64,000 bases of DNA from assembly GCA_964585065.1 (NCBI GenBank), contig CAZPCB010000001.1, positions 162,866 to 226,865 on the forward strand, given 5' to 3'. Every line of letters starts with the position of its first letter. Within the stretch, counting starts at the first letter, position 1. The notes beneath the pieces were generated by a model. That model was given only the letters and a program-made list of their open reading frames with translations. It did not search any database and was not told the origin of the DNA. Source of the stretch: an uncultured Candidatus Saccharibacteria bacterium. Its GTDB lineage: Bacteria > Patescibacteriota > Minisyncoccia > SW-4-49-11. Both the position numbers and the translations under genes were made by a program. Below, piece by piece: positions 66 through 54,704 of this stretch.

Positions 66-129
66 TGTTGTAAATTTAGGTAAAGCAACACTACATAACC
101 TTGAGTATCAATCAAAAGTTAAAAAGATG

Positions 130-133
<4 letters not shown>
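66..133 (-). promoter_or_regulatory. 23S precursor processing stem, 3' trailer half (pairs with 3120-3189)
   Basis: Plus 69-83 (gtaaatttaggtaaa) and 121-133 (aaaaagatgagtt) are exact reverse complements of 3175-3189 and 3120-3132. This is the classic RNase III-type stem enclosing the mature rRNA. Confidence 0.7.
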
Positions 134-3119
<2,986 letters not shown>

Positions 3120-3125
<6 letters not shown>

Positions 3126-3189
3126 TCTTTTTAAATTCTGATTTATACTTTTGGTGAAAGTAGTAAAATTGCATTTACCTAAATTTACT
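3120..3189 (-). promoter_or_regulatory. 23S precursor processing stem, 5' leader half
   Basis: Complementary to 69-83 and 121-133 (15 and 13 nt exact). Confidence 0.7.
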
Positions 3190-38348: not shown

Positions 38349-39101
38349 TTATTGATTTACTATAAATCTCACTTTACCAAATTCGGTTTTGGTAAAATTA
38401 TCTTCAATAATTAATACATATTCTCCATTTTGTATATTGCGTCCATTAATATCTACAAAATTCCAATCAAATTCCCCTGTATTAATACGATTTTGAGCTA
38501 ATACAAAACGCTCATTATCACTTTCAAGATATATATTTACAAAAAATATATCAGGAGTAAAGCTCCAAGAAATACTATTATTCTCTTGATTAAAAATTTG
38601 TTTTTCCACTGGACTCGTAATAGTAAGATTTTGTTTTTCACGAATCAGAGCAAATATAGGAGATTGTCCTATATTTTGACTATTTTGTACTAATATAATT
38701 TGATATTGACCTGGCTCATAAGCTTTACTATTTATCTCAATAAAACCCCTATTAAACTTTTGCTGTCCTAAAGAATATTCTTTAAGCTGTGGCTTATCTG
38801 ACAGAGAAGAATCAAGAGATACCAAAAAAACTTCAATTGGCTCTAAATAAACTTGACTTAATTCTAATTTGATTATATCCCCAATTATAATATTCTGATA
38901 TTGCCTAGGGCTATTCACCGTTACTAATTCTTTAGGAGAAATAGTATTATCTTGATTAGATAGAGGATTCTGTGTATCGGATTTACTATTATAATCAACA
39001 AAAATACGAGCTCCTATTATTAATAAAAGAAATAAAACAATACCTATACTATATAGTTTATTATTTTTTATCCAATTGATAAATTGATTCCAAAATATCA
39101 T
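38349..39101 (-). CDS. Membrane-anchored secreted hypothetical protein
   Basis: N-terminal TM. Asn/Gln-rich. Overlaps plsC end by 41 nt, so true start uncertain. Confidence 0.4.
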   Translation of the reverse strand: MIFWNQFINWIKNNKLYSIGIVLFLLLIIGARIFVDYNSKSDTQNPLSNQDNTISPKELVTVNSPRQYQNIIIGDIIKLELSQVYLEPIEVFLVSLDSSLSDKPQLKEYSLGQQKFNRGFIEINSKAYEPGQYQIILVQNSQNIGQSPIFALIREKQNLTITSPVEKQIFNQENNSISWSFTPDIFFVNIYLESDNERFVLAQNRINTGEFDWNFVDINGRNIQNGEYVLIIEDNFTKTEFGKVRFIVNQ

Positions 39102-39681
39102 CTGCTACTTTTTGTAATTCATCTTCTGACTTTATTGTATCATATGATGTGATTTTTCCAACATTAAATGTCATTGTATAAAATGGCAAGCCTCTCCACC
39201 TTTGATGGTAATTAATATACATAGGTAATATTGAAGCTTGTGATTTCCATAACAAATACGCAACTCCTCTTTTTGCTTCTCCCCTACCATTTACTGTTTT
39301 TTGCATTTTCCCTTCAGGAAATATAGTTACAATTCCATCATCATTCAAAACGTCTACCATAGGGTCAACAACCTGTAAGCCTTGCCCGCTAACAACTGGA
39401 AAACATCGCATTTGACGTAAATACCAGCCAACAATTGGCTTAGTAAAAAAAACTGCACCTGTAATAATCCTCATATGAACTATTCGGTTACGGTTCATCC
39501 GAGCTAAATAGTACCAAATCCATATACCATCAATACGACCTCTATGATTAGATGCAATAATAAGGGGGCCCCGAATATCTTTGAGATGTTCAAGCCCCTG
39601 AATATCTTTCGTACTTACAAACAAACGTATAATCGTATGGAATATCCAGAAGGTAATCCAGTACAATACATTATGTACCAT
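39061..39681 (-). CDS. plsC: 1-acyl-sn-glycerol-3-phosphate acyltransferase family (PlsC-like)
   Basis: H....D motif IIASNHRGRIDG and FPEG motif (VTIFPEGKM). Confidence 0.7.
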   Translation of the reverse strand: MVHNVLYWITFWIFHTIIRLFVSTKDIQGLEHLKDIRGPLIIASNHRGRIDGIWIWYYLARMNRNRIVHMRIITGAVFFTKPIVGWYLRQMRCFPVVSGQGLQVVDPMVDVLNDDGIVTIFPEGKMQKTVNGRGEAKRGVAYLLWKSQASILPMYINYHQRWRGLPFYTMTFNVGKITSYDTIKSEDELQKVADDILESIYQLDKK

Positions 39682-40447: not shown

Positions 40448-40582
40448 AATTTTTTATTTTATACTATATACATATATTAGCATATTACATAATATTGTCA
40501 ATTAACATTCTGAATATACATATACCTCTCCATATGCTATAATTATTATAGTCACAAAAATAGATCTCAAATACGAATTCCC

Positions 40583-41320
40583 ATGATTAAATCTCTATTC
40601 ACAAAGAAAAATATCATCATATCTAGTATTATCCTTGTATTGGGTTTGGGAATAACCTATATCATATTAAAGCCCGAATCTAAACCCCAGCTCACACCTA
40701 TAGATGAGGGACTTACTCCTATTCGAATTATCCAAATTAAAGATGGTAAAGAGCAAGAAATTAATTTCACAGAGTCAGGTGCTGATATTATTGCAAGCGC
40801 TCTTATTTCAGCCAATCCTTTTGATGAACAAGTTAAACAAGATGTGCAAAATCTGGGTATTGACCGTATAGATTTACCTCTACTTCCAGAAGACCAAATA
40901 AAAGTTATCCCCAATCCAGAAAATCCACAGGCAGCAATTGAAAAATATTTAAAAGAGGTATATACTGTATTCAAGGATAATACTATCCAGCCCAATATCA
41001 GCCAGCTTTCTGAAGAAGCTTTGGATGGAAAAACACAAAACATTCAATCTCTACTTCGTACTAATGCTGACTTATATCGTTCATTATTTGAGATAGAAGT
41101 ACCCCAGGATGCATTAAAGCTTCATAAAGGGTATATTCGTATCGCACAAATACAAAATAGCTTTTTATTGGGACTATTAAATGCAAGCTCTGATCCATTA
41201 AGACTTGATATTAATAGTAAAATCACAGTAACATTATTACAGAAAATTGATGTTCCCATAAAAGATGAGCTGCAAAGTATCAGAAAAAAATATAATATCA
41301 TATACCAAAAACAATCATAA
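40583..41320 (+). CDS. Membrane-anchored periplasmic protein. First gene of a 5-gene envelope operon.
   Basis: N-terminal TM. Stop 1 nt before the next start. Confidence 0.5.
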   Translation: MIKSLFTKKNIIISSIILVLGLGITYIILKPESKPQLTPIDEGLTPIRIIQIKDGKEQEINFTESGADIIASALISANPFDEQVKQDVQNLGIDRIDLPLLPEDQIKVIPNPENPQAAIEKYLKEVYTVFKDNTIQPNISQLSEEALDGKTQNIQSLLRTNADLYRSLFEIEVPQDALKLHKGYIRIAQIQNSFLLGLLNASSDPLRLDINSKITVTLLQKIDVPIKDELQSIRKKYNIIYQKQS

Positions 41321-41321
41321 T

Positions 41322-43031
41322 ATGTCATCTCTCTTTTCTCAGAAAATGATATCGATACTCGGAATCTTTTTATTCGGATTTCTCTTTATATCACCACATA
41401 TTACCTATGCTGACAATTTGTATGGGCAGTCTTGTGGTACAACAAAATGTAGCGGAGCTGAAGTATGCCAAAAACAATATAGAGGAGTATTACCTATTGG
41501 TTCACAAAATGATGGTAATGCTACCTATACTTGTGTAAAACCCCAGAATTTAGAAGCTCCAGACAGCCCTTATAAAGGAGTACAGACAGCTTGCGGTGGG
41601 GTATTTCAAAAAGCATTTGGACTTGATTTAGGATCACTTACTGGTTCAGTATTAACAAATACCCTTCAGGCTGGATTAGGACAAATAAAAAACAGTTTGG
41701 GTCTAAATGGAAATGCAGTTGGTTTTGACTCAAGAGGAGCACAGGCTTTAAACTTTAATAATGTTGGATTAAACTGGAGTATTGATCCTACCAATCTTAT
41801 TAATACCGATGCTTCTTATTTTAAAGATTTTGTCCCAAAATGTGATAGTGCCTATAATAATATAAAAGGAGTTATTAATACCAATTTCCTGGTAGCTCCA
41901 CTACCTGTTGATATATTCAATCCCCTCCCCCTTCCAGTTAATGTTACCTCTCCCACTCCACTTCCAGTAATAGTAGTGGATGATTTAGCCCTCTATCAGC
42001 AAAAAGAATTAATTGATGCCCCTCTAGCCGCTCAACAAAAAGCAAAGACAATAGCGACCGTAAGCGATACTCTGAGATCACAAATTAGTAATGATAGTTT
42101 AATTCCAGATAATTATTTTGCTCTCAAAAGCTTAGGTTGGGAATTTGGAGCCCTATCCAAAGATACTGGAGTAGTATCTAAAGAAGCTATAGATAAATAT
42201 GGATCTTATCAGAATTTCTCATTAGATAAGAATAAGGATATAGAACAGTATTTTAAAGATTTACAAGATCAAAAAAGTCAATTGCCTGATGAGAATTTCA
42301 CACAAAACTGTGGTAATGTAAAAACAGAAGATGCAGGAGAAGTAAGTTTTGAATGTGCGCTCCTCGCCTTACAGCCTAATAATAATGCAAATGATATTGC
42401 CTTTAATATAGCACAAGTAGCTGCAGAAAAATCACAAAATGCCACCGAACTCCTTGATCAAGAAGTTCGTGATGGAAGTGGATATTTTGCAAAGACAGCA
42501 GATGGAGATAAGAACCCATTCACCAAAACTATTCAGACCCCAGGATCAAACATAGAATCTCTTACCAATAAAGTATTAGAGTCTACTGTGGATCAAGCTA
42601 TTACTGCATCTGGAGACAATTGTTTTGAGGCAATTCCTAATAATATACTTGAGGGGTCACTCAAACCCGTACTGACTCAAGGATTATTTGGAGTTAATAA
42701 TACTCTAGCATCAGTACAAAAAAATGTAACCTCTAATCCTGTTAACTCATTACAGAATCCTAGTGGTTTTGCTAATCAATTAACTTCTGGATTACAAGGT
42801 GCTATACCTGACCCTAATAAATTCTTCAAGTCTCTACAAAATTCATTATTACAAAATGTAACCAATGGATTATCTTGTGAGCTTAATAAGCAAGTTTCAG
42901 GGCTACTCAATGGAGCTCTCGGGAATATTAATATCCCAGGTATTGGTAATGTAAGTGGGGCATTAACGAATCAAGCCACAGGGGCTATAAATGGAGCTCT
43001 CAATAATGCTGTTAATGGCCTAATCCCATAA
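41322..43031 (+). CDS. Secreted 569-aa protein with 4-Cys N-terminal module and Gly/Asn/Leu-rich C-terminus
   Basis: Signal peptide MSSLFSQKMISILGIFLFGFLFISPHITYA. CGTTKCSGAEVC...TYTC. Repeated G..NGAL-like C-terminal motifs. Confidence 0.55.
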   Translation: MSSLFSQKMISILGIFLFGFLFISPHITYADNLYGQSCGTTKCSGAEVCQKQYRGVLPIGSQNDGNATYTCVKPQNLEAPDSPYKGVQTACGGVFQKAFGLDLGSLTGSVLTNTLQAGLGQIKNSLGLNGNAVGFDSRGAQALNFNNVGLNWSIDPTNLINTDASYFKDFVPKCDSAYNNIKGVINTNFLVAPLPVDIFNPLPLPVNVTSPTPLPVIVVDDLALYQQKELIDAPLAAQQKAKTIATVSDTLRSQISNDSLIPDNYFALKSLGWEFGALSKDTGVVSKEAIDKYGSYQNFSLDKNKDIEQYFKDLQDQKSQLPDENFTQNCGNVKTEDAGEVSFECALLALQPNNNANDIAFNIAQVAAEKSQNATELLDQEVRDGSGYFAKTADGDKNPFTKTIQTPGSNIESLTNKVLESTVDQAITASGDNCFEAIPNNILEGSLKPVLTQGLFGVNNTLASVQKNVTSNPVNSLQNPSGFANQLTSGLQGAIPDPNKFFKSLQNSLLQNVTNGLSCELNKQVSGLLNGALGNINIPGIGNVSGALTNQATGAINGALNNAVNGLIP

Positions 43032-43032
43032 T

Positions 43033-45180
43033 ATGAAAATCAAAACAAAACATATACAATATATAGCTCCTATATGTATTATAGCTATGTTCTTTTTACC
43101 TTCTATAACTCATGCACAAGCCTGGAATCCTTTTGGATGGGTAGGGGGTCTTATTGGTGATACAGCAACAGCTGCTTTGGGAGAAGTTTTAGCCTTCTTC
43201 AAATCAGCCTTAAGTACTATTCTTAAAGATACTGTGACGCCTCTACTCAATGCTGTAATGTCTTATCAAAACTTTTTTACTGATGGTGTCAATGCGGGTT
43301 GGAAAGCTACCAGAGACTTTGCTAATTTATTCTTTGCTCTCATATTACTCTTTATTGCTATAGCAACCGTACTCAATACGGGAGCATTAAATAATTATAC
43401 TGCTAAAAATATGCTACCAAAATTCATATTTGCGGCTTTATTTATCAATTTTAGTAAAGCTATTGTAGGATTCTTGATAGATATTAGTCAAATTATTATG
43501 ATATCTCTCTATAATACGTTTGGCCCAACTCTCACAGATTCAATTGGGAATGCATCAAAAATTGCTGAGGCTGCAACTGAAGCAGATAAAATAGGGGCTG
43601 CTATTATTAACCTCCTTACTATTATTCTTATCGTTATCCTTATTTTTGTATTCCTCTGGACTGCTGTGATATTGGTGGTAAGAATAATAACATTATGGTT
43701 TGTCATTATGACATCTCCATTAGCCTTTGTCTCTTCTATGATACCTGGACTATCTTCATTCTATAGTGATTGGAAAAAAAAGCTTCAAGAGGCTCTTGTC
43801 ACTGGCCCTACTTTAATGTTCCTATTATATCTTGCAGTAACTGTTATGAATGCTGGAGTTAATCCTAATGAAGCTACTGGTGGAAATTTACTTAATAATG
43901 GGAATATATTAAATTATGTCTTAGTAATTGGACTGGTAATTATTGCTAATATAGAAGCTCAGAAAGCTGGCCAACAAGGCCCTGCCATTCTATCCAAAGC
44001 CGTTGGAGTTGTAGGTACTGTTGCTACGCTTGGTATAGGCGGATATATTGGTGCTGGAGGAGCTAATACAGGACAAGCACTCCGAACTACTGGTGCTCTA
44101 GCTCAAGGAGGTGTTAAAAATGTAGATAAACTTGCAGGTGGGCTCACTAATACAGCTGGAGTTGTAGGTGGAGTAACTGGAATTGGGGCATTAAAAAATG
44201 CCAATCAAGCGTATGAAAGTGCCAAGAAAGATTTGAAAGAAAAACAAAAAACAGGGGTTGGGTTCGTAGGAAGATTTCAAGGTTTTTCAACAGAGGGTAA
44301 GAAAGAACAGTTAGAAGATTTTGAAAAACAAAAAGCAATTCGTTTGTTTAATGAAGGTAAGTTAGAAGAAAAAGGAAATGAACGCTATCAAAAAATGGCT
44401 GCAACTTTACAAGCTGCTACTGCCACAGGAGTAAAAGATGAATTTAATATTGAAAAACTAGGTCAAGATATGAAGAAAGCTCTTGATGATGGAGATAAAT
44501 TTACTGCAATGGCATTATCAACTAGGATATCCGAGCTAAAAGGATGGAGTCAAATATTTAAAGAAGATGGTCAGTTTAGTAAATACGCTAAAGAAAATAA
44601 ATCAGAAGCTGAACAATTAGATGCATTTATCAATGATAATTTTGAGCAAAAAGATAGTGCTGGAAACCTTATACGAGGTGATGATGGTAAAGTTATGGGT
44701 ACTAAAATAACAAATAGCTTTAGAAGTCGTCAGGCTAATATATTAAATGATAAAGGTGCGGGAAATTTTGCTGCTGGATTAGCAGAACGAGATGTACAAA
44801 ATCCAAATTACTCCCCTGCAACAAAAGCTGCTAAAGCTGGAATAATAGGAGCTGGAGCAGCTTATGCAAAAAATAGTGCGGTGTTCAATGTTAGAGATAC
44901 AGACGCAAATGATAACCCAGCATTTACTAATGGAGAACAAGCATTTAAATTCAATATTAAACCAATTCTAGCAAGTATTGAGGGTGAATCACTATCTATA
45001 CTAAGAAAATCGGAAAGTTGGAATCAATTTGGAAAAGATAGAAAAACAATCAAGGAAGGATTAGAGGCGGAATTAAAGAATCCCTCAAGAGATAAATCTC
45101 TTGATTCAAAAATTACAGCTGCATTACAGGGTCTAGATTTATCATCAGGAGGATCTCGAGTTACTGTTAATAACACATAG
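43033..45180 (+). CDS. 715-aa polytopic membrane protein: signal peptide, ~7 TM, Gly-rich segment, charged coiled-coil C-terminal domain. Possibly VirB6/TrbL-like.
   Basis: Topology inferred from hydrophobicity. Gly/Ala-rich segment AGQQGPAILSKAVGVVGTVATLGIGGYIGAGGANTG. Start 2 nt after the previous stop. Confidence 0.5.
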   Translation: MKIKTKHIQYIAPICIIAMFFLPSITHAQAWNPFGWVGGLIGDTATAALGEVLAFFKSALSTILKDTVTPLLNAVMSYQNFFTDGVNAGWKATRDFANLFFALILLFIAIATVLNTGALNNYTAKNMLPKFIFAALFINFSKAIVGFLIDISQIIMISLYNTFGPTLTDSIGNASKIAEAATEADKIGAAIINLLTIILIVILIFVFLWTAVILVVRIITLWFVIMTSPLAFVSSMIPGLSSFYSDWKKKLQEALVTGPTLMFLLYLAVTVMNAGVNPNEATGGNLLNNGNILNYVLVIGLVIIANIEAQKAGQQGPAILSKAVGVVGTVATLGIGGYIGAGGANTGQALRTTGALAQGGVKNVDKLAGGLTNTAGVVGGVTGIGALKNANQAYESAKKDLKEKQKTGVGFVGRFQGFSTEGKKEQLEDFEKQKAIRLFNEGKLEEKGNERYQKMAATLQAATATGVKDEFNIEKLGQDMKKALDDGDKFTAMALSTRISELKGWSQIFKEDGQFSKYAKENKSEAEQLDAFINDNFEQKDSAGNLIRGDDGKVMGTKITNSFRSRQANILNDKGAGNFAAGLAERDVQNPNYSPATKAAKAGIIGAGAAYAKNSAVFNVRDTDANDNPAFTNGEQAFKFNIKPILASIEGESLSILRKSESWNQFGKDRKTIKEGLEAELKNPSRDKSLDSKITAALQGLDLSSGGSRVTVNNT

Positions 45181-45186
45181 TTCACT

Positions 45187-46059
45187 ATGACACTCGCAGA
45201 TATCAAAAGTGAAGCTCATTCTCTCATTACCACAGATAATGTGCCAGTATCTCTTGAATTTGCGGAGAAATTAGAGAAATCTCTAATAGCGAATAATATT
45301 AAGGACTCTAATGCTGAGGCTTATCGCGAATTATCTAAGATTATATTCCAACTTTATGTAACGGCTATTCCTAATATATCGACTGAATTATTCCATAAAA
45401 TTATTTCTCTTAATATTATAGAGGCTTTGAGTCCTCTATGGCCTTCTGAGCGTGATTTTGCCGCCCGAATTGAGAGTAGATATTCGATTTATCCTGTGGA
45501 GCTCATCAAGGAAGAAATGCGAAAGGATTTACTCCCGCTTCTCAAACAAAATAATCAATTAATCGGTACCGTAGTATTACGCCTATCTCAAGAGCATCCT
45601 CAAGCAAAACCAAGTATTAGTAATTGGCTTGAATATTATGATAGAGTAACTGGTCTGGGGTCAGCTAACAGCTTTGAGCGTTCTCGTTTTATTAGTGGCG
45701 ACCCCATTGTACAAACCTTAAATCCTGAGGAAAAAGAGTCTCTGAGGAAAGTAGTTCAATTCTACGATTATCTTCAAACTGATGAGACAGTCCTCTATCA
45801 GGATATTTATAATACTGCTCCTCAATCAACTCTCAATACAATAACTCCTAATATTGACCCTAAGCCAATACAGACTACTCCCCTCCCCACACCTAAACCA
45901 GTTACTACGGTGAAAACTCCTGTCTCTACTCCCAATAATATTCCCCAAAATACAATTCCCCGAGCTCCAATACCTCGCCGTACTTCTGCTCCTGTAGTAT
46001 TGACAGCTAAACCAACTCCTATCCCTCAAAATCTTGTTAATCTCAAAAAACCAGAATAA
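45187..46059 (+). CDS. Soluble protein with Pro/Thr-rich C-terminal tail
   Basis: No TM. PKPIQTTPLPTPKPVTTVKTPVSTPNNIPQNTIPRAPIP. Confidence 0.5.
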   Translation: MTLADIKSEAHSLITTDNVPVSLEFAEKLEKSLIANNIKDSNAEAYRELSKIIFQLYVTAIPNISTELFHKIISLNIIEALSPLWPSERDFAARIESRYSIYPVELIKEEMRKDLLPLLKQNNQLIGTVVLRLSQEHPQAKPSISNWLEYYDRVTGLGSANSFERSRFISGDPIVQTLNPEEKESLRKVVQFYDYLQTDETVLYQDIYNTAPQSTLNTITPNIDPKPIQTTPLPTPKPVTTVKTPVSTPNNIPQNTIPRAPIPRRTSAPVVLTAKPTPIPQNLVNLKKPE

Positions 46060-46061
46060 CT

Positions 46062-46505
46062 ATGCAACAATATAATATTCCACAATTTATTGATTCTGAA
46101 GATAAAATTATTGGTCCTCTGACTATAAGGCAATTTGCATTCTTGGCAATTGGTGTGGTAATTGGAGGATTTTTATGGTATTTTAAACCTAATATTGGTG
46201 TTTTTATTATTAGCATACTTCCTGTTGCTGTAGCTACTTTTGCTTTTGCTTTTATCAAAATTAATGGCCAAAACTTTGATATATTTATTGTAAATGTGAT
46301 AGTATATATTCTGAAGCCAACTTTATTCCTTTGGTCTCGAGACATAGATACAACCCAATCAGTTATTAAAGTGTCTATTGAAAAGCGTAAAGCTTCATTT
46401 AGGCGAGAGACTCATGATTATAATCAATCTCGTGTAGAAGAAGTTGCCTGGACTCTAGATAGTTATGGTGAGAAAACCGTAATACCAGATATTGCAGCAG
46501 AATAG
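46062..46505 (+). CDS. Small 2-TM protein resembling the PrgI family (VirB3-like)
   Basis: N-terminal YNIPQFIDSEDKIIGPLTIRQFAFLAIG followed by two TM helices. Recalled similarity to PrgI-family N-termini, not verified. Confidence 0.4.
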   Translation: MQQYNIPQFIDSEDKIIGPLTIRQFAFLAIGVVIGGFLWYFKPNIGVFIISILPVAVATFAFAFIKINGQNFDIFIVNVIVYILKPTLFLWSRDIDTTQSVIKVSIEKRKASFRRETHDYNQSRVEEVAWTLDSYGEKTVIPDIAAE

Positions 46506-46757
46506 CTATTTTGTATTATTGGTATCTTTTATAGTTTCAGTATTAGCTTTATTATTTTCTTCTACACTATTTTTTATCTCCTCAGCTTGATTTTTTGTCT
46601 CATTCGCACTTGGTATTTCTGGTACTTTTATATCGGGTTTTGTAAAAGACAAGTCTGAAAAATTAAGAATCATAGACCAAATAAATATACCTATTATCAT
46701 AATACTTCCTATTACAAATAATATTATTAATTGTTTTTTCTTTTTATCGCTGTCCAT
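46506..46757 (-). CDS. Small bitopic membrane protein with Lys/Glu/Asn-rich tail
   Basis: ORF, one TM. Confidence 0.35.
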   Translation of the reverse strand: MDSDKKKKQLIILFVIGSIMIIGIFIWSMILNFSDLSFTKPDIKVPEIPSANETKNQAEEIKNSVEENNKANTETIKDTNNTK

Positions 46758-46768
46758 TAATCCCCCTC

Positions 46769-47968
46769 TTAATCTTTGTTTATAAGTCTACTATGTCTTG
46801 ACATTACTAGAATAATTAATCCCGCCAAACCTAATACTGCCAATCCCATATATCTATCATTACGCAGAAATCCAAATTTAGATGCACTTTGTATATTTGC
46901 ATCAAGTGGTATCCTATCTTTATTAATAGTAAAAGATTTAGTCGCATTAGCATCTCCATTAATATCCTTTACTACTATATCTATTTTATAAGCCTTATTG
47001 GGATCAATATCAAGAGAAAGAGAATTACCACTGCCATCCTGTACTTCATCATTAACTCTATAGGTATAAGATAATTTTGCATTTTGCCTAATATTATCTA
47101 CATCACTTGATATTAATAGTTGAATCGCTTCATCAATTTTCAAATCATCAGTATAATCAATAGGAGTATTATTCTTATTATTGACGAGCGAGACCCGAAT
47201 TGCAGGCTGTTTAATCGCAATAGTATTTATTCCATAATACCTGGTATATCCTGTTATTCTATCTCTTGCAATAGCTTGTATGAGATAACTTTTATCATAT
47301 CCTTTATTCTCCGTAAAGGTAATTTTATTATTATTTTGCTCTACTGTATTACCATCAATTTTCCATTCAATTGCATATTGTGATATGGGTAACTCTGTCG
47401 CAACAGAAATGGTATCCCCTTTTGCAGGATTCAAAGGTCTATAGTCGAGGGAGATTTTATCAAAAATATCTAAATTAATACTTCCCGTTTTAATAACTCC
47501 ATTAGCATTGACTGCAACTTCAATTTGATAAGTACCTGATTCTGTAAATGTATAAAAGAATCCCGTTTTATCAATTCCATTTGCTTCAAATACTACTTTT
47601 TCTCCCTTTTTAATTCTCCAATTATATTGAGCTCCATCAAATACAAACCCTTTATCTATATGATAATTAATAGTTGCAAAATCAACTTGTTGTTTGGTAA
47701 AAAGATATTTATTTTTTACTACAAGTTTAATCTCCCCTGTTGATGATTTCTCGGTATAATAACTATCTGCAAAACTTTGCTTAATATAATTATCAATAAG
47801 AGTATTAGCCTCATCTTGAGTTTTTGGGTCATTATTGGAAAGAGTGGATTGGGGAATAATACTTGAATCAGTATTGGTAGTACTAGTATCCTGTGCCAAT
47901 ACTACTGATGAGCTCAGTAGTATTGAACCTATCAGTAATCCCGCTATTATATATTGTGAATATTTCAT
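46769..47968 (-). CDS. Secreted surface protein with beta-sandwich-like repeats and C-terminal TM anchor plus basic tail
   Basis: Signal peptide. C-terminal GLAVLGLAGLIILVMSRHSRLINKD. No LPXTG. Confidence 0.5.
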   Translation of the reverse strand: MKYSQYIIAGLLIGSILLSSSVVLAQDTSTTNTDSSIIPQSTLSNNDPKTQDEANTLIDNYIKQSFADSYYTEKSSTGEIKLVVKNKYLFTKQQVDFATINYHIDKGFVFDGAQYNWRIKKGEKVVFEANGIDKTGFFYTFTESGTYQIEVAVNANGVIKTGSINLDIFDKISLDYRPLNPAKGDTISVATELPISQYAIEWKIDGNTVEQNNNKITFTENKGYDKSYLIQAIARDRITGYTRYYGINTIAIKQPAIRVSLVNNKNNTPIDYTDDLKIDEAIQLLISSDVDNIRQNAKLSYTYRVNDEVQDGSGNSLSLDIDPNKAYKIDIVVKDINGDANATKSFTINKDRIPLDANIQSASKFGFLRNDRYMGLAVLGLAGLIILVMSRHSRLINKD

Positions 47969-48021
47969 TGATATTAATTAAATCTTTATTTAGTATATCA
48001 TATTGCGATGAATAATGGGAA

Positions 48022-48666
48022 TTATCTTTTTACTCCTACTGGTTGAGGCTGCTGGCGACGATTCAATCCACGCATATTACTCACAACTTCTGATACACTG
48101 AGAGATTGCCTCCATTTATTAATTGAATCTTCAAATTTCTCATTATCTTCTTTGATTTGTTTTGCTCTTGCTCGATGAGCTTTTATATGAAGCCAAGCTT
48201 TAATAGTCCAGGTTGGGGATAAATCTCCAATCCATGGAATAGCCTCTATAACTCCAGCTATTATAAGCCCTACTGTTTTTTTCCAACCAAATTCCATAAT
48301 ATATTCCCCTGTCTTATCTAGCATATACTTACTAGCCTCTTGAGTTTTACGAGCTAAAGCTTGTTGAATTTTACTTTGTGCTGGACTGGTATTACGGGAA
48401 TTACGAGATAAGCGCATTAATTGTCTAATGGTATTGACTTGATACAATTTTAGATTAGTATTATAGATAGTAAGATAGCTATAATATATGGCACAAAAGG
48501 CAATATCCGTCATAATAGCTATCGCATCTACTACAAAAGATCCCACAATACTAATTACTTGAATAGCTGGAATTAAATCTATTACAAATAGAATTAATCC
48601 AAAAAAGTCCCACATTATGGCAAATCCGAGATTGATATATAACCACATTCCATTTAATGGCTTCAT
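48022..48666 (-). CDS. Hypothetical membrane protein (214 aa)
   Basis: 3-4 TM N-terminal half, basic C-terminus. Confidence 0.4.
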   Translation of the reverse strand: MKPLNGMWLYINLGFAIMWDFFGLILFVIDLIPAIQVISIVGSFVVDAIAIMTDIAFCAIYYSYLTIYNTNLKLYQVNTIRQLMRLSRNSRNTSPAQSKIQQALARKTQEASKYMLDKTGEYIMEFGWKKTVGLIIAGVIEAIPWIGDLSPTWTIKAWLHIKAHRARAKQIKEDNEKFEDSINKWRQSLSVSEVVSNMRGLNRRQQPQPVGVKR

Positions 48667-51156: not shown

Positions 51157-52758
51157 CTATAACATACTGTCACTAATAGGAATTCCTATCGGCACACTAT
51201 CAAGTCCCTCCGGAGATACAACAATAATATTATTCCATTTATACCCTAATCCTTCAAATACTCCTGGAGAGGTCACATAGCGTTTCTTACCCTCAGACAT
51301 GATATAAACTTCCCCTCTGCCCGAGGCTCTCAGAATCACTCCGTCACGAAAATATACAGCCGGTCCCTGCTGATAAGAATTCCATTCAGCCCCTGATACA
51401 TATACTAAATCCTTATAATTATATTGAGTATTGAATATTTCGGGACTTGGTATGGGGCGCCTTTTCCCCGCTTCCAAAACCTCTATTCCTGTTGGATTAT
51501 CTCGATTAACCAATAATGTTCCATCTGGATAGGGGCGAGATTGCATAATAGGTCCAATTGGATGAGATATAGCAAGAGTCCCATCAGCAATAATAGTAAT
51601 ATTATTCCACTTATAGCCTAAGGCCTCAAAAGTAACGGGGGATGGAATATGTCTTCTTTGCTGATTACTAATTACATATACATCAGGGTTATTCTTTTCT
51701 CTTACCAACATTCCTTCCCTAAATGTAAGAGCTGAAGCTAAAGGATAAGAATCCCACTCGGCACGTGTGACATCTAATACATCTTTCCAATTAAAACGAG
51801 AATTAAAAACATCAGGATTTACGAGAGGCCTAATACTCCCATTCTCGAGATAACCAACCCCCGTATCTGTTCTTAACAATGAACCATTGGGAAAGGTTCT
51901 AATATCCGTAGTATCTGGGAATAAGGCTAATTCAGTTGCATTAATACTAATCACATTTTTCCCTCCAATATTACCCGTAGGAGTTTTTATCCCATTTTGA
52001 ATAGTATAAAGACGACCATTATCATCTCGATACAGCGAATTATCATAATATTGATTCCACTCTTGAGCTCGATTCCGAAGCCAGCTCATATCTACCATAT
52101 TAGTATCTCCATTTCCAGCTTCTACAGCTCCATGATCAGTAAGTCGAAAGCCAGTATAATTAGAACTATATGCCTTAGTATAAAAATTCCAAATAGGTTC
52201 AGTCACATAATCAGTTGGGGCAATACTATTAGTTGAACTAAGCCATCCAGATAATTTAGCTAAAGATTGTTTCATAGCTTCTGGTACTGTTGCATAGCCA
52301 CTTCCATAGCGACCAATCAAAGAAACTCCTATACTTTGATAATTAAAGTTATCTCCCGTACGATTTACATAAAGATGAGCTCCTCTTACTCCATTTTGCC
52401 CCATTCTCCCCTGATAAATACTCCCATCGCGAGCAATTAGATAATTATACCCTATATCCCCCCAACCATTATTACGGGCATGTGTAGTGAATATTGAACG
52501 AATTATTTGTCTCGGGTCAAGAGAGTCACTATTAAAGTCAGCTAAAGCCGTATCATGTAATAATATTCTCTTTATCTGAAAAGTATTATTAGAATTTGGT
52601 GGCCAAGCATTGAGAGTATAGGTATTATCATCTGTCATTGCCCAAGTATTACGAGATTGTATATTGGGGGTATTCGCAAAAGTGGGTAGTGGGAATATTA
52701 AGGCTATTCCAAAAAAAATCACCCATAATATTGATCGCAAATATAATATCCCCCTCAT
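51157..52758 (-). CDS. Secreted N-acetylmuramoyl-L-alanine amidase (Amidase_2/PGRP fold) with four C-terminal ~55-aa repeats
   Basis: Signal peptide. LLHDTA...GWGDIGYNYLIARDGSIYQGR. Repeats of the same family as in the S8 protease. Confidence 0.75.
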   Translation of the reverse strand: MRGILYLRSILWVIFFGIALIFPLPTFANTPNIQSRNTWAMTDDNTYTLNAWPPNSNNTFQIKRILLHDTALADFNSDSLDPRQIIRSIFTTHARNNGWGDIGYNYLIARDGSIYQGRMGQNGVRGAHLYVNRTGDNFNYQSIGVSLIGRYGSGYATVPEAMKQSLAKLSGWLSSTNSIAPTDYVTEPIWNFYTKAYSSNYTGFRLTDHGAVEAGNGDTNMVDMSWLRNRAQEWNQYYDNSLYRDDNGRLYTIQNGIKTPTGNIGGKNVISINATELALFPDTTDIRTFPNGSLLRTDTGVGYLENGSIRPLVNPDVFNSRFNWKDVLDVTRAEWDSYPLASALTFREGMLVREKNNPDVYVISNQQRRHIPSPVTFEALGYKWNNITIIADGTLAISHPIGPIMQSRPYPDGTLLVNRDNPTGIEVLEAGKRRPIPSPEIFNTQYNYKDLVYVSGAEWNSYQQGPAVYFRDGVILRASGRGEVYIMSEGKKRYVTSPGVFEGLGYKWNNIIVVSPEGLDSVPIGIPISDSML

Positions 52759-52760
52759 AA

Positions 52761-54704
52761 TTAAGGCAAAGGTCCTACTGGAATTGACTGATCAATCATA
52801 AATCCATACTGCAATGTATCATTTGTAACTACCCCAAGAGCTAACATTGCCTCTGGAGAAAGTCCAGATACACGATTCGTAAATATAGCCGGTCCTGATT
52901 CCATAATTGTAGCTACCAATTTTTTTCCATTGGCGGGATTTGTCACCAAAACCTTACGGCCTCTATGCCAATTTTTAGCGGTATTATTAAAATCTGTACT
53001 ACGAGTACGTCCTCTCCATTGATCAGTAGCATATTCATAAACCTCTTGTACTGTACTTCCTGAATTATGAGATTTAGGAGAAGCTGCTATAGATGGACTA
53101 TCTACACCTCGCTGAGATACAATTAGACTATTTCCATCTTTACCACTATATGCAATAATTTCTCCATTTATAATAATCCAACCCGTATTAGGATAATCTG
53201 ACACATTAGCAAGAGGTATTCTATTGGCAGAAGTATCTATATTTTGAGTAAGCGTACTCGTAGCCTCATACCATCTTACATAATTCCAACGCATAGTAAT
53301 ATAATATTTTTCTTCTTCTACTGAGAATGGAGCATAACTAGAATTGAGACTTCCTCCTGGACATGATAAAGCAAATGCCCCCCCACTTTTCAATAATCCA
53401 TTTTGGGCTGAAAGTGGCGTAGAGGCTCTTCCATAATGATCACCACTTGTTTCATTACAATCGCGGGCAAGATGCTGTTCACGAGCTGTTCTACCACTTG
53501 TAGCTGGGATAGCATATCCGTCTAAACTAGCGGCTTGAATATCTGAGAGAGCAGATCCCATAGCATTAGAATTAAATTCATCTTCAGATACTGCTGTTAC
53601 ATTAGCCCAATTATATCCCCGGGCGGCAAATATTTCGGGACTTGGGATACCTCGTTTCAATTCTCCTTCAATTACATATACCCCTCCGCCAAAAGATATT
53701 AAAGCACCATTTCTAAATCCAACTCTTCCTGCCTTTGTATATTGATTTATAACACTATCTGGTAATCTCAGTACGGAATCCCAACTATATCCTTGACTTG
53801 CAAAAATTTTAGGACTAGGAATATATTGTAAGCTCCCATCATTAGCTACGCGATATATAGGCCCAGCAGTACCGATGAGAGATCCTTCTACATATCGTTT
53901 TACTGTATTAAAGGCTCCAGATTCAGGAATAATAGATAATTCAAAATCTGTAGCTCGCTTTACTTGTCCCCAATTAAGTCCATAGCTCTCAAAAACTGCA
54001 GGAGAAGTAATAGGCTGCCGCACATTATTCTGCATCATAAATACTCCTGTAGCACTAGATATTAATAACCCATCGGGATAAAATTCATTAGCTCCTTGGG
54101 GATATGTATTCAGATATGCCTCTGAGACATCAATCAGAGATTCCCAACGATATCTTGCTTGAAATATAAGAGGACTAGGAATATATCTTCTCTGCCCATT
54201 TTTAATCACATACACTTCCCCTCCTGGTCTTACCAATAAACTTCCATTGGGATGTTTGGAAGCTGTAGTTAAGCCAGGTCCCTGAGGCTGAGGAGCAAGT
54301 TCCGCATCACTTACTGCAATTACATTAGACCATTTATACCCCTTTTGAAGAAAAGTACTCGGAGAATCAATAGGCAATCTCTGCCCATCAGAAATGACAT
54401 ATACCGAACCTCCGTTAGATAATAATGATCCATCTCTATATGTCATTTGTGGACCATTGGGCAATGCATCAATTTCCGTCTGAGTAGTAACTACCAAATC
54501 ATCCCATCTAAATTGAGACCGAAGCATATTAGGAGACTCAATAGGGCGCTTTTGTCCATTATCTATATAATAAACTTTGGGGTTATTAGTAGATTTTAAT
54601 AATATTCCATTAGGAAAGCTTGGGCTACTCGCATAACTCATTACTGGGAATACCCATATCACACATAAACTCAATACTAGACTATATGTTAATTTTTTAT
54701 TCAT
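52761..54704 (-). CDS. Secreted protein: ~6 N-terminal copies of the same repeat, a Cys-containing middle, and a C-terminal RlpA-like double-psi beta-barrel domain
   Basis: Signal peptide. KVLVTNPANGKKLVATIMESGPAIFTNRVSGLSPEAMLALGV resembles RlpA/3D-domain DPBB. Confidence 0.6.
   Translation of the reverse strand: MNKKLTYSLVLSLCVIWVFPVMSYASSPSFPNGILLKSTNNPKVYYIDNGQKRPIESPNMLRSQFRWDDLVVTTQTEIDALPNGPQMTYRDGSLLSNGGSVYVISDGQRLPIDSPSTFLQKGYKWSNVIAVSDAELAPQPQGPGLTTASKHPNGSLLVRPGGEVYVIKNGQRRYIPSPLIFQARYRWESLIDVSEAYLNTYPQGANEFYPDGLLISSATGVFMMQNNVRQPITSPAVFESYGLNWGQVKRATDFELSIIPESGAFNTVKRYVEGSLIGTAGPIYRVANDGSLQYIPSPKIFASQGYSWDSVLRLPDSVINQYTKAGRVGFRNGALISFGGGVYVIEGELKRGIPSPEIFAARGYNWANVTAVSEDEFNSNAMGSALSDIQAASLDGYAIPATSGRTAREQHLARDCNETSGDHYGRASTPLSAQNGLLKSGGAFALSCPGGSLNSSYAPFSVEEEKYYITMRWNYVRWYEATSTLTQNIDTSANRIPLANVSDYPNTGWIIINGEIIAYSGKDGNSLIVSQRGVDSPSIAASPKSHNSGSTVQEVYEYATDQWRGRTRSTDFNNTAKNWHRGRKVLVTNPANGKKLVATIMESGPAIFTNRVSGLSPEAMLALGVVTNDTLQYGFMIDQSIPVGPLP

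What the first reader, a model, noticed from the sequence alone, without database searches (positions are those of the whole stretch)
40583..46505. Translationally coupled five-gene envelope operon with VirB6-like and PrgI/VirB3-like components but no ATPase: T4SS-like or novel cell-surface apparatus
Five + strand genes are separated by only 1-6 nt. They encode a TM-anchored periplasmic protein, a 569-aa secreted protein with a 4-Cys N-terminal module and Gly/Asn-rich tail, and a 715-aa protein with signal peptide, ~7 TM, Gly/Ala-rich segment and a large charged coiled-coil C-terminal domain (architecture reminiscent of extended VirB6/TrbL/TcpH proteins). The last two are a Pro-rich soluble protein and a 147-aa 2-TM protein whose N-terminus (IPQFIDSEDKIIGPLTIRQF) resembles PrgI-family (VirB3-like) proteins. 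No VirB4/VirD4 ATPase is in or near the operon. Three further envelope or secreted genes are encoded convergently just downstream (46506-48666). In small-genome epibiotic bacteria such systems are suspected of mediating host contact.
Basis: partly seen in the sequence, partly recalled or inferred. Interest (0 to 1): 0.7.

Follow-up and report, generated by a model that had tools for sequence, protein, structure and literature searches.

The report
Split T4SS membrane module, swappable VirB6 tail
This five-gene operon of a freshwater Paceibacteria (CPR) genome is the membrane half of the already described Patescibacteria type IV secretion system, encoded apart from its ATPase, and the C-terminal domain of its VirB6-like protein is swapped between strains like a cassette, which may mark a specificity determinant for host contact.

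Summary

The triad g3-g4-g5 has the order VirB6-X-VirB3 seen in other Patescibacteria loci, where TrsD and VirB4 follow directly. In this clade the locus stops after PrgI, in about 20 distinct related loci, and sits between housekeeping genes. No VirB4, TrsD, VirD4 or pilin gene is in the 64-kb window. I could not test whether the ATPase lies elsewhere in the genome.

The unexpected result concerns gene 3. Its transmembrane core is conserved, but its C-terminal ~300 residues form at least 27 allelic types that recombine at a Gly-rich linker. Of 48 protein pairs with cores at least 95% identical, 36 have tails under 50% identical. Nearly identical tails also sit on cores only 42-76% identical. 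A Gly-rich segment of gene 2 is a second variable region.

Verdict: a new variant of a known system, the Patescibacteria T4SS described in 2023 and 2025.

The parts
40515..40543 (+). Promoter-like site (TATACA-17-TATAAT with an extended TG) 40 nt upstream of g1, in the divergent intergenic region shared with the 115-aa minus-strand gene
   Evidence: Consensus scan, 10 of 12 matches. Such matches are only slightly more frequent than in shuffled sequence, so this is a weak indication.
40583..41320 (+). g1: 245-aa bitopic membrane protein with an N-terminal TM at aa 9-31 and a largely helical extracytoplasmic domain. It is clade-specific and its role is unknown.
   Evidence: Hydropathy. Conserved upstream of g2-g5 in all clade loci (alignment A3). 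No Pfam, NCBIfam or PDB-sequence hit. No similarity to the pCF10 VirB8-like proteins PrgL and PrgD.
41322..43031 (+). g2: 569-aa secreted protein. It has a signal peptide (…ITYA|DN), an invariant 4-Cys N-terminal module, a strain-variable Gly-rich region, a near-invariant Pro-rich motif, a helical core and a Gly/Asn-rich tail.
   Evidence: Alignment A5 of 40 homologs. The AlphaFold model is poor overall (pLDDT 52.8), with only aa ~260-420 confident, and Foldseek against PDB finds nothing. No Pfam or NCBIfam hit.
41559..41846 (+). g2 variable region (aa ~80-175): a second hypervariable segment of the operon
   Evidence: Window vs L001: 36% aa identity here against 90% for the rest of g2. DNA identity falls to 37-56% between flanks of 91-100%. 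dS is 1.66 against 0.38 in the rest of g2.
41895..42044 (+). g2 near-invariant motif APLPVDIFNPLPLPVNVTSPTPLPVVVVDDLALYQQKELIDAPLAAQQKA (aa 192-241)
   Evidence: Almost every column is invariant or at least 90% conserved across 40 homologs that are only 31-88% identical overall.
43033..45180 (+). g3: 715-aa extended VirB6-like protein
43282..43974 (+). g3 conserved transmembrane core (aa ~84-314), predicted as five long helices at 84-114, 124-181, 186-234, 238-275 and 291-314
   Evidence: AlphaFold pLDDT mostly 65-83. 62 invariant columns among 34 homologs, nearly all in this stretch.
43978..44289 (+). g3 Gly/Ala-rich linker (aa 316-419). It contains a conserved Gly-zipper-like segment (aa 318-343) followed by a disordered Gly-rich stretch. 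The recombination breakpoints fall here.
   Evidence: pLDDT below 50. Sliding identity of informative pairs switches between aa ~345 and ~440. The DNA match to L009 is lost from window position 44076.
44290..45177 (+). g3 C-terminal cassette (aa 420-715): a well-folded, mostly helical domain. It is one homologous fold with at least 27 allelic types that are exchanged between lineages.
   Evidence: pLDDT 82-94. Shuffling statistics. The types are homologous to each other: 168 of 253 representative pairs have blastp E below 1e-5. dS between types is 1.79 against 0.24-0.45 in the flanks. No specific PDB fold match.
45187..46059 (+). g4: 290-aa soluble protein. It has a conserved N-terminal helical domain of ~205 aa, a variable Pro-rich linker and a conserved C-terminal peptide SAPIVLTAKPTPIPKNLVNLKKPE. 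It is a short member of the uncharacterised 'X' family found between VirB6 and VirB3 in Patescibacteria T4SS loci.
   Evidence: Alignment A4. 244 cluster representatives at E of 1e-3 or better, none of the 10 sampled with a Pfam domain. A family N-domain profile hits the X proteins of L019 and L018 at E 2.7e-40 and 4.4e-35.
46062..46505 (+). g5: 147-aa PrgI-family (VirB3-like) membrane protein with hydrophobic segments spanning aa ~16-92 and a cytoplasmic tail
   Evidence: PF12666: 43.9 bits, E 3.5e-11, cut-off 27, aa 6-85. The N-terminal motif and the tail motif SR(V/L)..(V/L)A...D..G are shared with the VirB4-adjacent PrgI of L019 and L020. dN/dS 0.06-0.08.
46506..48666 (-). Three convergent envelope genes syntenic with the operon across the clade: an 83-aa bitopic protein (46506-46757), a 399-aa protein with a signal peptide, weak PKD/Ig-like signals and a C-terminal TM anchor (46769-47968), and a 214-aa polytopic protein (48022-48666). 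A functional link to the T4SS module is not shown.
   Evidence: Hydropathy. Sub-threshold PKD hits. Synteny in L001-L017, with similarly placed convergent genes in L025 and L027. No homologs detected in the loci that carry TrsD-VirB4, L019 and L020.

Best explanation
The operon encodes the cytoplasmic-membrane and stalk-base part of the lineage's Patescibacteria-type (MPF-FATA-related) type IV secretion system.

Proposed roles, by analogy with the solved R388 machine:
- The extended VirB6 (g3) oligomerises in the membrane as the platform of the channel.
- The PrgI/VirB3 protein (g5) contacts the VirB6 transmembrane helices and tethers the TrsD/VirB4 ATPase.
- The conserved cytoplasmic X protein (g4) acts as an accessory or adaptor.
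- A clade-specific bitopic protein (g1) and a secreted protein (g2) form the extracytoplasmic part.

In this Paceibacteria clade the locus was cut after virB3 and fixed between housekeeping genes. The TrsD-VirB4 motor is therefore most likely encoded elsewhere in the genome, making this a split T4SS.

The C-terminal domain of VirB6 is a polymorphic module. Anciently diverged alleles of one fold are swapped between strains and lineages by homologous recombination at the Gly-rich linker. I infer that this domain sets a specificity that is under balancing or frequency-dependent selection. The closest precedent is the VirB6 homolog TraG, whose variable region defines entry-exclusion groups. Here the selective agent would be a host-side or competitor-side factor that recognises or blocks the machine.

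Shown: homology of g3, g4 and g5; synteny; the truncation; the recombination pattern.
Inferred: the assembly roles, the existence of a distant VirB4, and the function of the cassette.
For: Identity of the genes:
- g5 is PrgI above the Pfam cut-off.
- g4 belongs to the family occupying the VirB6-VirB3 interval in other Patescibacteria loci.

Locus organisation elsewhere:
- L019, L020 and L026 read VirB6-like, X, PrgI, TrsD/TraC-like, VirB4.
- Table S3 of PMC12102498 lists VirB6 at gene n, VirB3 at n+2, TrsD at n+3 and VirB4 at n+4 in two genomes.

The truncated locus in this clade:
- About 20 distinct loci (L001-L017, L023, L025, L027; two pairs are the same contig) end after PrgI, where the contig reaches that far, and lie between acyltransferase/YtxH and SHMT/FolD, down to 32% g3 identity.

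Signs of function:
- dN/dS is 0.06-0.20 for g1, g3 (within one cassette type), g4 and g5.
- PrgI is among the best conserved genes of the neighbourhood (72% mean identity against 67% for FolD).
- PrgI keeps a cytoplasmic tail motif also present in VirB4-adjacent PrgI. This argues that its partner still exists.

Background from the literature:
- VirB4 was found in 2,417 of 3,035 Patescibacteria assemblies, and only 880 of 1,649 VirB3 homologs lie near virB4 (PMC12102498).
- In R388 the VirB6 and VirB3 TM segments contact each other, and VirB3 binds VirB4 (PMC9259494).

The cassette. Precedent for VirB6 as the specificity target of exclusion: PMC11493245.
Against: - No VirB4, TrsD, VirD4, relaxase or VirB2-like pilin is in the 64-kb window or within 10 kb of the module in any clade locus. 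I could not search the rest of any genome of the clade. The VirB4 homolog search listed only the best 120 of 8,000 hits, none on the clade's long contigs.
- In the part of Table S3 that I read, the PrgI-type VirB3 entries carrying a PF12666 hit were next to VirB4. The uncoupled layout is therefore not the common one.
- Pfam family membership of g3 is below threshold in my own scans.
- g1 and g2 have no detectable relation to any T4SS component.
- The side of the membrane on which the cassette sits is unresolved. A five-helix model plus the positive-inside rule puts it in the cytoplasm; a marginal Gly-zipper segment could put it outside.
- No gene of the locus co-varies with the cassette type, so no partner is identified.
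Confidence: 0.6

Rival explanations
1. ATPase-less, repurposed module. The clade lost TrsD-VirB4, and the VirB6/X/VirB3 proteins together with g1 and g2 now work without a dedicated T4SS motor. They could act as a passive channel, a membrane-contact or adhesion complex, or be driven by another machine such as the type IV pilus system.
For: The locus ends after PrgI in every clade member examined, while the nearest outgroup keeps TrsD-VirB4. Nothing ATPase-like is in the 64-kb window. About 20% of Patescibacteria assemblies had no VirB4 hit. The clade gained the specific genes g1 and g2, and three convergent envelope genes are syntenic with the operon.
Against: VirB4 is the one universal T4SS component (PMC12102498), and VirB3 is known as its membrane anchor. 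The cytoplasmic tail motif of PrgI is conserved between VirB4-adjacent and VirB4-distant copies, and g5 is under strong purifying selection. This is hard to explain if the partner is gone. Absence was tested only locally.
Confidence: 0.2
2. The g3 C-terminal cassette is a surface-exposed host-recognition or adhesion domain. The Gly-zipper segment spans the membrane, the domain lies outside, and its variation tracks host surface receptors or escapes phage or antibody-like recognition. This rivals only the cassette part of the best explanation.
For: The hypervariability and inter-lineage exchange resemble those of surface proteins. The secreted g2 is independently hypervariable. The Gly-zipper segment aa 318-343 is almost invariant and marginally hydrophobic.
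Against: By my hand calculation on the Hessa scale, the Gly-zipper segment has an unfavourable insertion energy of about +3.5 kcal/mol. AlphaFold gives it low confidence. The five-helix model with the C-terminus inside fits the positive-inside rule better (7 K/R in inside loops against 2 in outside loops; my own count from the sequence and hydropathy segments). It also matches the published VirB6 and TraG/Eex topologies.
Confidence: 0.25
3. The operon is an envelope gene cluster unrelated to type IV secretion, and the VirB6 and PrgI resemblances come from the composition of hydrophobic helices.
For: The g3 Pfam and NCBIfam hits are below threshold. Helical membrane proteins give many spurious structural matches. 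g1 and g2 have no known relatives.
Confidence: 0.03
4. The block is a remnant of a conjugative element (ICE or plasmid), or a decaying pseudo-operon.
For: The Patescibacteria T4SS is thought to derive from monoderm conjugation systems (PMC12102498). The ATPase, coupling protein and relaxase are missing here.
Against: The chromosomal position is fixed between AspRS/acyltransferase/YtxH and SHMT/FolD across the clade, down to SHMT identities of 62%. G+C is similar to the surroundings. No integrase or relaxase was found. The ORFs are intact in all loci and dN/dS is low.
Confidence: 0.02

Closest known systems
Patescibacteria T4SS (Wang et al. 2023, PMC10633639; Quinonero-Coronel et al. 2025, PMC12102498)
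   Same: Chromosomal and MPF-FATA-related. It has VirB6-like and PrgI-type VirB3 components in the order VirB6-X-VirB3, and no relaxase or coupling protein at the locus. It occurs in class Paceibacteria. The system is presumed to serve the epibiotic lifestyle and is essential in Southlakia epibionticum.
   Different: Here the locus stops after VirB3. TrsD, VirB4 and the VirB2-like pilins are not adjacent and are not within 64 kb. Two clade-specific genes (g1, g2) precede VirB6. I found no published description of the VirB6 C-terminal domain as a recombining polymorphic cassette, though the literature search was limited.
Extended VirB6 proteins (F and SXT/R391 TraG, Rickettsiales RvhB6, clostridial TcpH)
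   Same: A polytopic VirB6 core plus a large hydrophilic C-terminal domain (review PMC12857230). In TraG a variable region sets exclusion-group specificity through the recipient's TraS or Eex (PMC11493245). Rickettsiales T4SS genes are scattered in several islands (PMC12102498).
   Different: There is no sequence similarity in the C-terminal domain. No adjacent exclusion gene co-varies with the cassette. The extent of the allelic series (at least 27 types) and its exchange across lineages with 42-76% core identity are, to my knowledge, not reported for these proteins. TcpH topology and the Rickettsiales details are from my own knowledge and were not tested.
Enterococcus pCF10 PrgH-PrgI-PrgJ (monoderm conjugation T4SS)
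   Same: The VirB6-like gene is followed by PrgI. There is weak profile similarity of g3 to PrgH (E 2.9e-4) and of g5 to PrgI (E 0.002).
   Different: pCF10 has PrgJ/VirB4 immediately after PrgI, plus a hydrolase, VirB8-like proteins, a coupling protein and a relaxase. There is no X gene, and PrgH is a short (266 aa) VirB6 without a C-terminal domain.
Polymorphic C-terminal cassette systems (CdiA-CT, Rhs and other polymorphic toxins; antigenically variable pilins)
   Same: A conserved N-terminal part, a sharp boundary, variable C-termini exchanged horizontally, and ancient alleles.
   Different: All cassette types here are versions of one fold rather than unrelated toxin domains. There is no adjacent immunity-like gene that co-varies and no silent cassettes in the window. 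This comparison rests on my own knowledge of those systems.

Membership tests
Type IV secretion system (any class) | A VirB4-family ATPase, the only universal T4SS component | tested here: inconclusive
   Absent from the 64-kb window and from within 10 kb of the module in all clade loci.
Patescibacteria T4SS locus (PMC12102498) | Gene order VirB6 - X - VirB3(PrgI) with homologous proteins | tested here: met
   g3-g4-g5 match the triad of L018, L019, L020 and L026 and the n / n+2 spacing in Table S3.
Patescibacteria T4SS locus (PMC12102498) | TrsD-like protein and VirB4 directly downstream of VirB3; VirB2-like pilin gene(s) nearby | tested here: not met
   PrgI is followed by a convergent 83-aa gene. 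There is no TrsD or VirB4 by tblastn. No small pilin-like ORF was found; the only small two-TM intergenic ORF is SecG.
PrgI family, PF12666 (VirB3-like) | Score above the Pfam gathering threshold over most of the profile | tested here: met
   43.9 bits against a cut-off of 27, E 3.5e-11, profile positions 2-85 of 91. The same call was made on the orthologs in 10 loci.
VirB6/TrbL (PF04610, PF19590) | Pfam match above the gathering threshold | tested here: not met
   My own hmmscan gives no TrbL hit on g3. It gives only 11-14 bits (cut-off 25.9) for PF04610 on two homologs (P0002, P0042). A precomputed PF19590 TrbL_3 hit (E of 1e-5 or better by the tool's legend) is recorded for about 44 of 102 homologs, but I could not reproduce it.
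VirB6/TrbL (PF04610, PF19590) | VirB6 fold: a bundle of about five long membrane helices, as in TrwI of R388 | tested here: met
Extended VirB6 | Polytopic core plus a large hydrophilic C-terminal domain | tested here: met
   Core at aa ~84-314, linker at 316-419, folded hydrophilic domain at 420-704. Definition taken from PMC12857230.
VirB8-like proteins (PrgL, PrgD, TcpC, TraM), candidate g1 | Bitopic protein with an NTF2-like extracytoplasmic domain and sequence or profile similarity | tested here: not met
   The bitopic architecture is present. hhalign to pCF10 PrgL and PrgD gives probability 0.1-0.3%, and there is no PDB sequence hit.
Conjugative element (ICE or plasmid) | Relaxase, coupling protein, integrase or replication genes, and variable insertion context | tested here: not met
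   None of these is in the window. The housekeeping flanks are fixed across the clade.
Polymorphic toxin / immunity systems | Unrelated C-terminal toxin folds, each followed by a co-varying immunity gene | tested here: not met
   The cassette types are homologous to each other. g4 stays 95% identical where the cassette is 29% identical. The genes sampled in more than 20 locus pairs show no appreciable residual correlation with cassette identity (|r| of 0.32 or less); only sparsely sampled flank genes score higher.
Entry-exclusion pair (TraG/Eex, TraG/TraS) | The variable region of the VirB6 homolog determines specificity towards a cognate exclusion protein, usually encoded next to it | not testable with these tools
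   The variable region is present, and no adjacent co-varying gene was found. Specificity itself needs experiments. The precedent is cited from PMC11493245.

The most novel reading that the evidence does not exclude
The C-terminal cassette of the VirB6-like protein is a horizontally traded specificity key of the epibiont's T4SS. Each allele would fit, or escape, a host-side or rival-side factor, so that strains with identical machines differ in which partners they can exploit. In addition, the VirB6/X/VirB3 module in this clade may operate physically and genetically uncoupled from VirB4, possibly with no dedicated ATPase at all.
Probability: 0.25. Interest if true: 0.8.

Novelty: new variant of a known kind. 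Interest (0 to 1): 0.6.

Why it matters
The T4SS is one of the few machines shown to be essential for the epibiotic growth of a cultivated patescibacterium. What it transports and how partner specificity arises are unknown, and reviews state that the role of the extra domains of extended VirB6 proteins is not known.

An allelic series of one folded domain, exchanged between lineages at a defined linker while the channel core stays constant, points to that domain as a specificity determinant. It gives a concrete handle for follow-up work. Cassette types can be tracked in lake time-series metagenomes, correlated with hosts, and swapped experimentally.

The fixed separation of VirB6/VirB3 from VirB4 in a whole clade also shows that surveys centred on virB4 neighbourhoods miss part of the system.

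Tried and rejected
1. Looking for the clade's VirB4. I searched the protein collection with a VirB4 profile from L019 and L020, hoping to recognise hits by the lengths of the clade's long contigs (425,073; 252,952; 132,404 bp and others). All 8,000 candidates scored, only 120 were listed, and none matched. The question stays open. Accession look-ups in the supplement of PMC12102498 found none of the clade's genomes.

2. Structure of g1 and g4. Alignments made from fetched loci are not accepted by the prediction tool. Sequence profiles of g1 and g4 found nothing in the PDB.

3. Structure of g2. The model was too poor (pLDDT 52.8) for a meaningful fold search, and the search returned nothing. 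The idea that g2's helical core resembles VirB5 is therefore unsupported.

4. g2 as a short version of the giant surface proteins (2,800-3,300 aa) that precede VirB6 in other Patescibacteria loci. The g2 profile does not hit them. Rejected.

5. g1 as a VirB8-like protein. No profile similarity to PrgL or PrgD.

6. Programmed antigenic variation from silent cassettes. No extra copies of g3-tail or g2-head sequences exist in the window.

7. Toxin-immunity logic. No neighbouring gene co-varies with the cassette.

8. Rapid in-place positive selection. dN/dS is 0.20 within a cassette type, and dS is saturated between types, which indicates old alleles moved by recombination.

9. Reproducing the Pfam TrbL_3 annotation. 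My own scans failed to do so.

10. The metagenome scan was not used. With at most 80 loci returned, it could not link a VirB4 to this genome.

Full report
**1. What is in the sequence**

The gaps between them are 1, 1, 6 and 2 nt. The g5 stop codon touches the stop codon of a convergent 83-aa gene. None of the short spacers contains an obvious Shine-Dalgarno sequence, so translational coupling is a reasonable inference that I did not test.

- Hydropathy and alignments confirm the described architectures.
- A promoter-like site lies 40 nt upstream of g1, and no + strand terminator-like site lies inside the operon.
- The identical g3 protein with the same neighbours occurs in an independent public assembly.
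- The window comes from a low-G+C (about 33%) genome assigned to Candidatus Paceibacteria (Parcubacteria, Patescibacteria/CPR) from freshwater metagenomes.

**2. Which genes are recognisable**

g5 matches Pfam PrgI (PF12666) at 43.9 bits against a cut-off of 27.

g3 gives no Pfam hit of its own. The sequence-level support is weak:
- a sub-threshold NCBIfam hit to the CD3337/EF1877 mobilome membrane protein family;
- sub-threshold PF04610 TrbL hits on two homologs;
- a precomputed PF19590 TrbL_3 annotation on about 44 of 102 homologs, which I could not reproduce;
- a weak profile match to pCF10 PrgH (E 2.9e-4).

g4 has no Pfam, NCBIfam or PDB relative. Its N-terminal domain nevertheless defines a family of at least 244 cluster representatives. 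The 10 members I sampled have no Pfam domain either.

g1 and g2 have no detectable relatives outside the clade. g1 is not similar to the VirB8-like proteins of pCF10.

**3. Genomic context decides the identity**

In more distant relatives the g3 homolog is followed by a protein 'X', then PrgI, then a TrsD/TraC-like protein of about 230 aa, then a VirB4 ATPase with P-loop_TraG, AAA_10 and DUF87 domains. This holds for L019 (a Patescibacteria group bacterium), L020 (Buchananbacteria) and L026, the closest outgroup by g3 similarity.

The published survey of Patescibacteria T4SS lists the same spacing, with VirB6 at gene n, VirB3 at n+2, TrsD at n+3 and VirB4 at n+4 (Table S3 of PMC12102498). A profile of the g4 family's N-terminal domain hits the X proteins of L019 and L018 at E 2.7e-40 and 4.4e-35.

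So g3-g4-g5 correspond to the VirB6-X-VirB3 triad of a known system.

**4. The clade-specific truncation**

About 20 distinct loci carry a g3 homolog of 32% identity or more (L001-L017, L023, L025, L027; L001/L006 and L002/L009 are the same contigs). In these, the order is g1-g2-g3-g4-g5. Where the contig reaches that far, the operon ends after PrgI and meets the convergent envelope genes. The block lies between AspRS/acyltransferase/YtxH and SHMT/FolD.

- tblastn with TrsD-like and VirB4 proteins finds nothing in the window or in any of the clade loci searched (L001-L017, L023). The gene tables of L025 and L027 show no such gene either.
- Pfam scans of the other window genes show only housekeeping and envelope functions.
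- The block is therefore a stable chromosomal feature of a family- or order-level clade. It is not a mobile element and not a decaying remnant.
- dN/dS is 0.06-0.20 for the conserved parts.
- PrgI is better conserved than FolD.
- PrgI keeps a cytoplasmic tail motif that it shares with the VirB4-adjacent PrgI of L019 and L020.

I take this as indirect evidence that a TrsD/VirB4 partner is still encoded somewhere else. VirB4 occurs in about 80% of Patescibacteria assemblies, and nearly half of VirB3 homologs are not near virB4. I could not verify it directly. The one search that might have shown it was capped.

**5. The unexpected feature: a recombining cassette in VirB6**

A blastn comparison with a closely related genome (L002/L009) showed a hole exactly over the 3' half of g3 (window 44076-45177). 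The flanks there are 86-92% identical at the DNA level.

Sliding-window identity shows how sharp this is:
- 100% identity at the end of g2;
- a drop at the first codons of g3;
- unalignable sequence over the C-terminal domain;
- 87-99% again from the start of g4.

Among four strains whose housekeeping proteins are 90-98% identical, the g3 tail is 93, 29, 42, 28, 42 and 35% identical in the six pairwise comparisons.

Across 79 full-length homologs:
- 48 pairs have membrane cores at least 95% identical, and 36 of them have tails under 50% identical;
- 46 pairs have tails at least 90% identical, and 26 of them have cores under 80% identical;
- single-linkage clustering at 70% gives 27 tail types against 4 core clusters;
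- 12 of 16 groups with cores at least 97% identical carry two to four tail types;
- three tail types are spread over cores only 42-53% identical.

The switches fall in the disordered Gly-rich linker, between about aa 345 and 440.

The tail types are versions of one fold: 168 of 253 representative pairs have blastp E below 1e-5, and the window's type is modelled with pLDDT 82-94. Between types dS is saturated (1.79 against 0.24-0.45 in the flanks), and within a type dN/dS is 0.20. These are old alleles moved by homologous recombination, not fast local divergence.

There are no silent copies in the window. No neighbouring gene co-varies with the tail type.

A second, independent variable segment is the Gly-rich region of the secreted g2. 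It is 36% identical between the window and L001, where the rest of g2 is 90% identical. The Pro-rich linker of g4 and the nearby acyltransferase gene are also mosaic.

**6. How it most likely works**

By analogy with the R388 structure, VirB6 forms the pentameric base of the stalk. Its TM helices contact VirB3, and VirB3 binds VirB4 (PMC9259494). On that basis I propose the following:
- g3 and g5 form the membrane platform of the machine;
- g4 is a cytoplasmic accessory conserved throughout Patescibacteria T4SS loci;
- g1 and g2 are the clade's extracytoplasmic additions;
- the motor is supplied from another locus.

All of this is inference from homology.

For the cassette, the best precedent is entry exclusion. 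The VirB6 homolog TraG is the target of the recipient's TraS or Eex, the interacting regions are cytoplasmic, and variable residues define exclusion groups. SGI1 even evades exclusion by replacing TraG with a distant VirB6 homolog (PMC11493245). A host-side or rival-side factor acting on the VirB6 tail would give frequency-dependent selection, and that could maintain many old alleles and reward their exchange.

The topology is unresolved. The five-helix AlphaFold model and the positive-inside rule put the tail in the cytoplasm. The conserved but only marginally hydrophobic Gly-zipper segment (aa 318-343) could put it outside, in which case a host-recognition role is the simpler reading.

**7. 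Comparison with what is known, and novelty**

The Patescibacteria T4SS is published (PMC10633639, PMC12102498, review PMC12857230), so the operon as such is not a new kind of system. Three things differ:
- the fixed separation of VirB6/X/VirB3 from TrsD/VirB4/VirB2 in a whole clade;
- the clade-specific genes g1 and g2;
- the cassette-like polymorphism of the extended VirB6 tail.

I found no description of the third point in the papers I could search. The review states that the role of the extra domains of extended VirB6 proteins is unknown.

I rate this a new variant of a known kind, with interest 0.6.

Noticed in passing
window 39061-39681 (-): The acyltransferase gene (PF01553) just upstream of the operon is also mosaic between close strains. 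It is 62-78% identical at the protein level where neighbouring genes are 93-97% identical, with sharp DNA identity steps (for example 100% at 39665 falling to 67-68% at 39140-39440 against L009).
   Followed up: partly
window 45740-45890 (+), g4 Pro-rich linker: The Pro-rich linker of g4 drops to 57-62% DNA identity against L001 while its flanks are above 90%. It is followed by a strictly conserved C-terminal peptide, SAPIVLTAKPTPIPKNLVNLKKPE, which could be a docking motif.
   Followed up: partly
window 123-3128 (-): A complete 23S rRNA gene (45% G+C against about 33% elsewhere) has no 16S or 5S rRNA gene detected anywhere in the 64-kb window. The rRNA genes therefore appear unlinked.
   Followed up: no
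window 14853-16724 (-) and 17718-19529 (-): A 623-aa protein has an N-terminal prepilin-type methylation motif (a large pseudopilin or pilin-like protein). It lies close to a 603-aa subtilase, with a GAPDH gene between them.
   Followed up: no
window 55657-60237 (-): A 1526-aa protein combines SF1 helicase domains (AAA_11, AAA_12, AAA_30), a weak REase_MTES_1575 nuclease hit and a C-terminal topoisomerase-type zinc ribbon. The architecture looks defence- or repair-like and is unrelated to the T4SS.
   Followed up: no
window 51157-54704 (-): A 533-aa Amidase_2 (peptidoglycan amidase) protein with a long C-terminal region is followed by a 647-aa protein without any Pfam hit. Both are syntenic with the operon region in most clade loci. 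A cell-wall hydrolase near a T4SS module could stand in for VirB1, but no link was tested.
   Followed up: no
L018 315-8708, L019 254-8677, L026 1-9986: In T4SS loci of other Patescibacteria that carry TrsD-VirB4, a giant secreted protein of 2,800-3,300 aa sits upstream of the VirB6-like gene. It is directly adjacent in L026 and separated by one opposite-strand gene in L018 and L019. The g2 profile does not match it.
   Followed up: partly
L019 14702-15127: A PD-(D/E)XK nuclease (PDDEXK_3) gene is inserted between the X gene and PrgI in one T4SS locus of another patescibacterium.
   Followed up: no
window 38349-39101 / 39061-39681 (-): The 250-aa gene and the acyltransferase gene overlap by 41 nt. 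The 250-aa protein is a signal- or TM-anchored protein without any family assignment, and it is missing or replaced in several relatives.
   Followed up: no
window 48022-48666 (-), d214: The 214-aa polytopic membrane protein of the convergent trio is more variable between close strains (75-93%) than its neighbours. In relatives it ranges from 178 to 415 aa.
   Followed up: no
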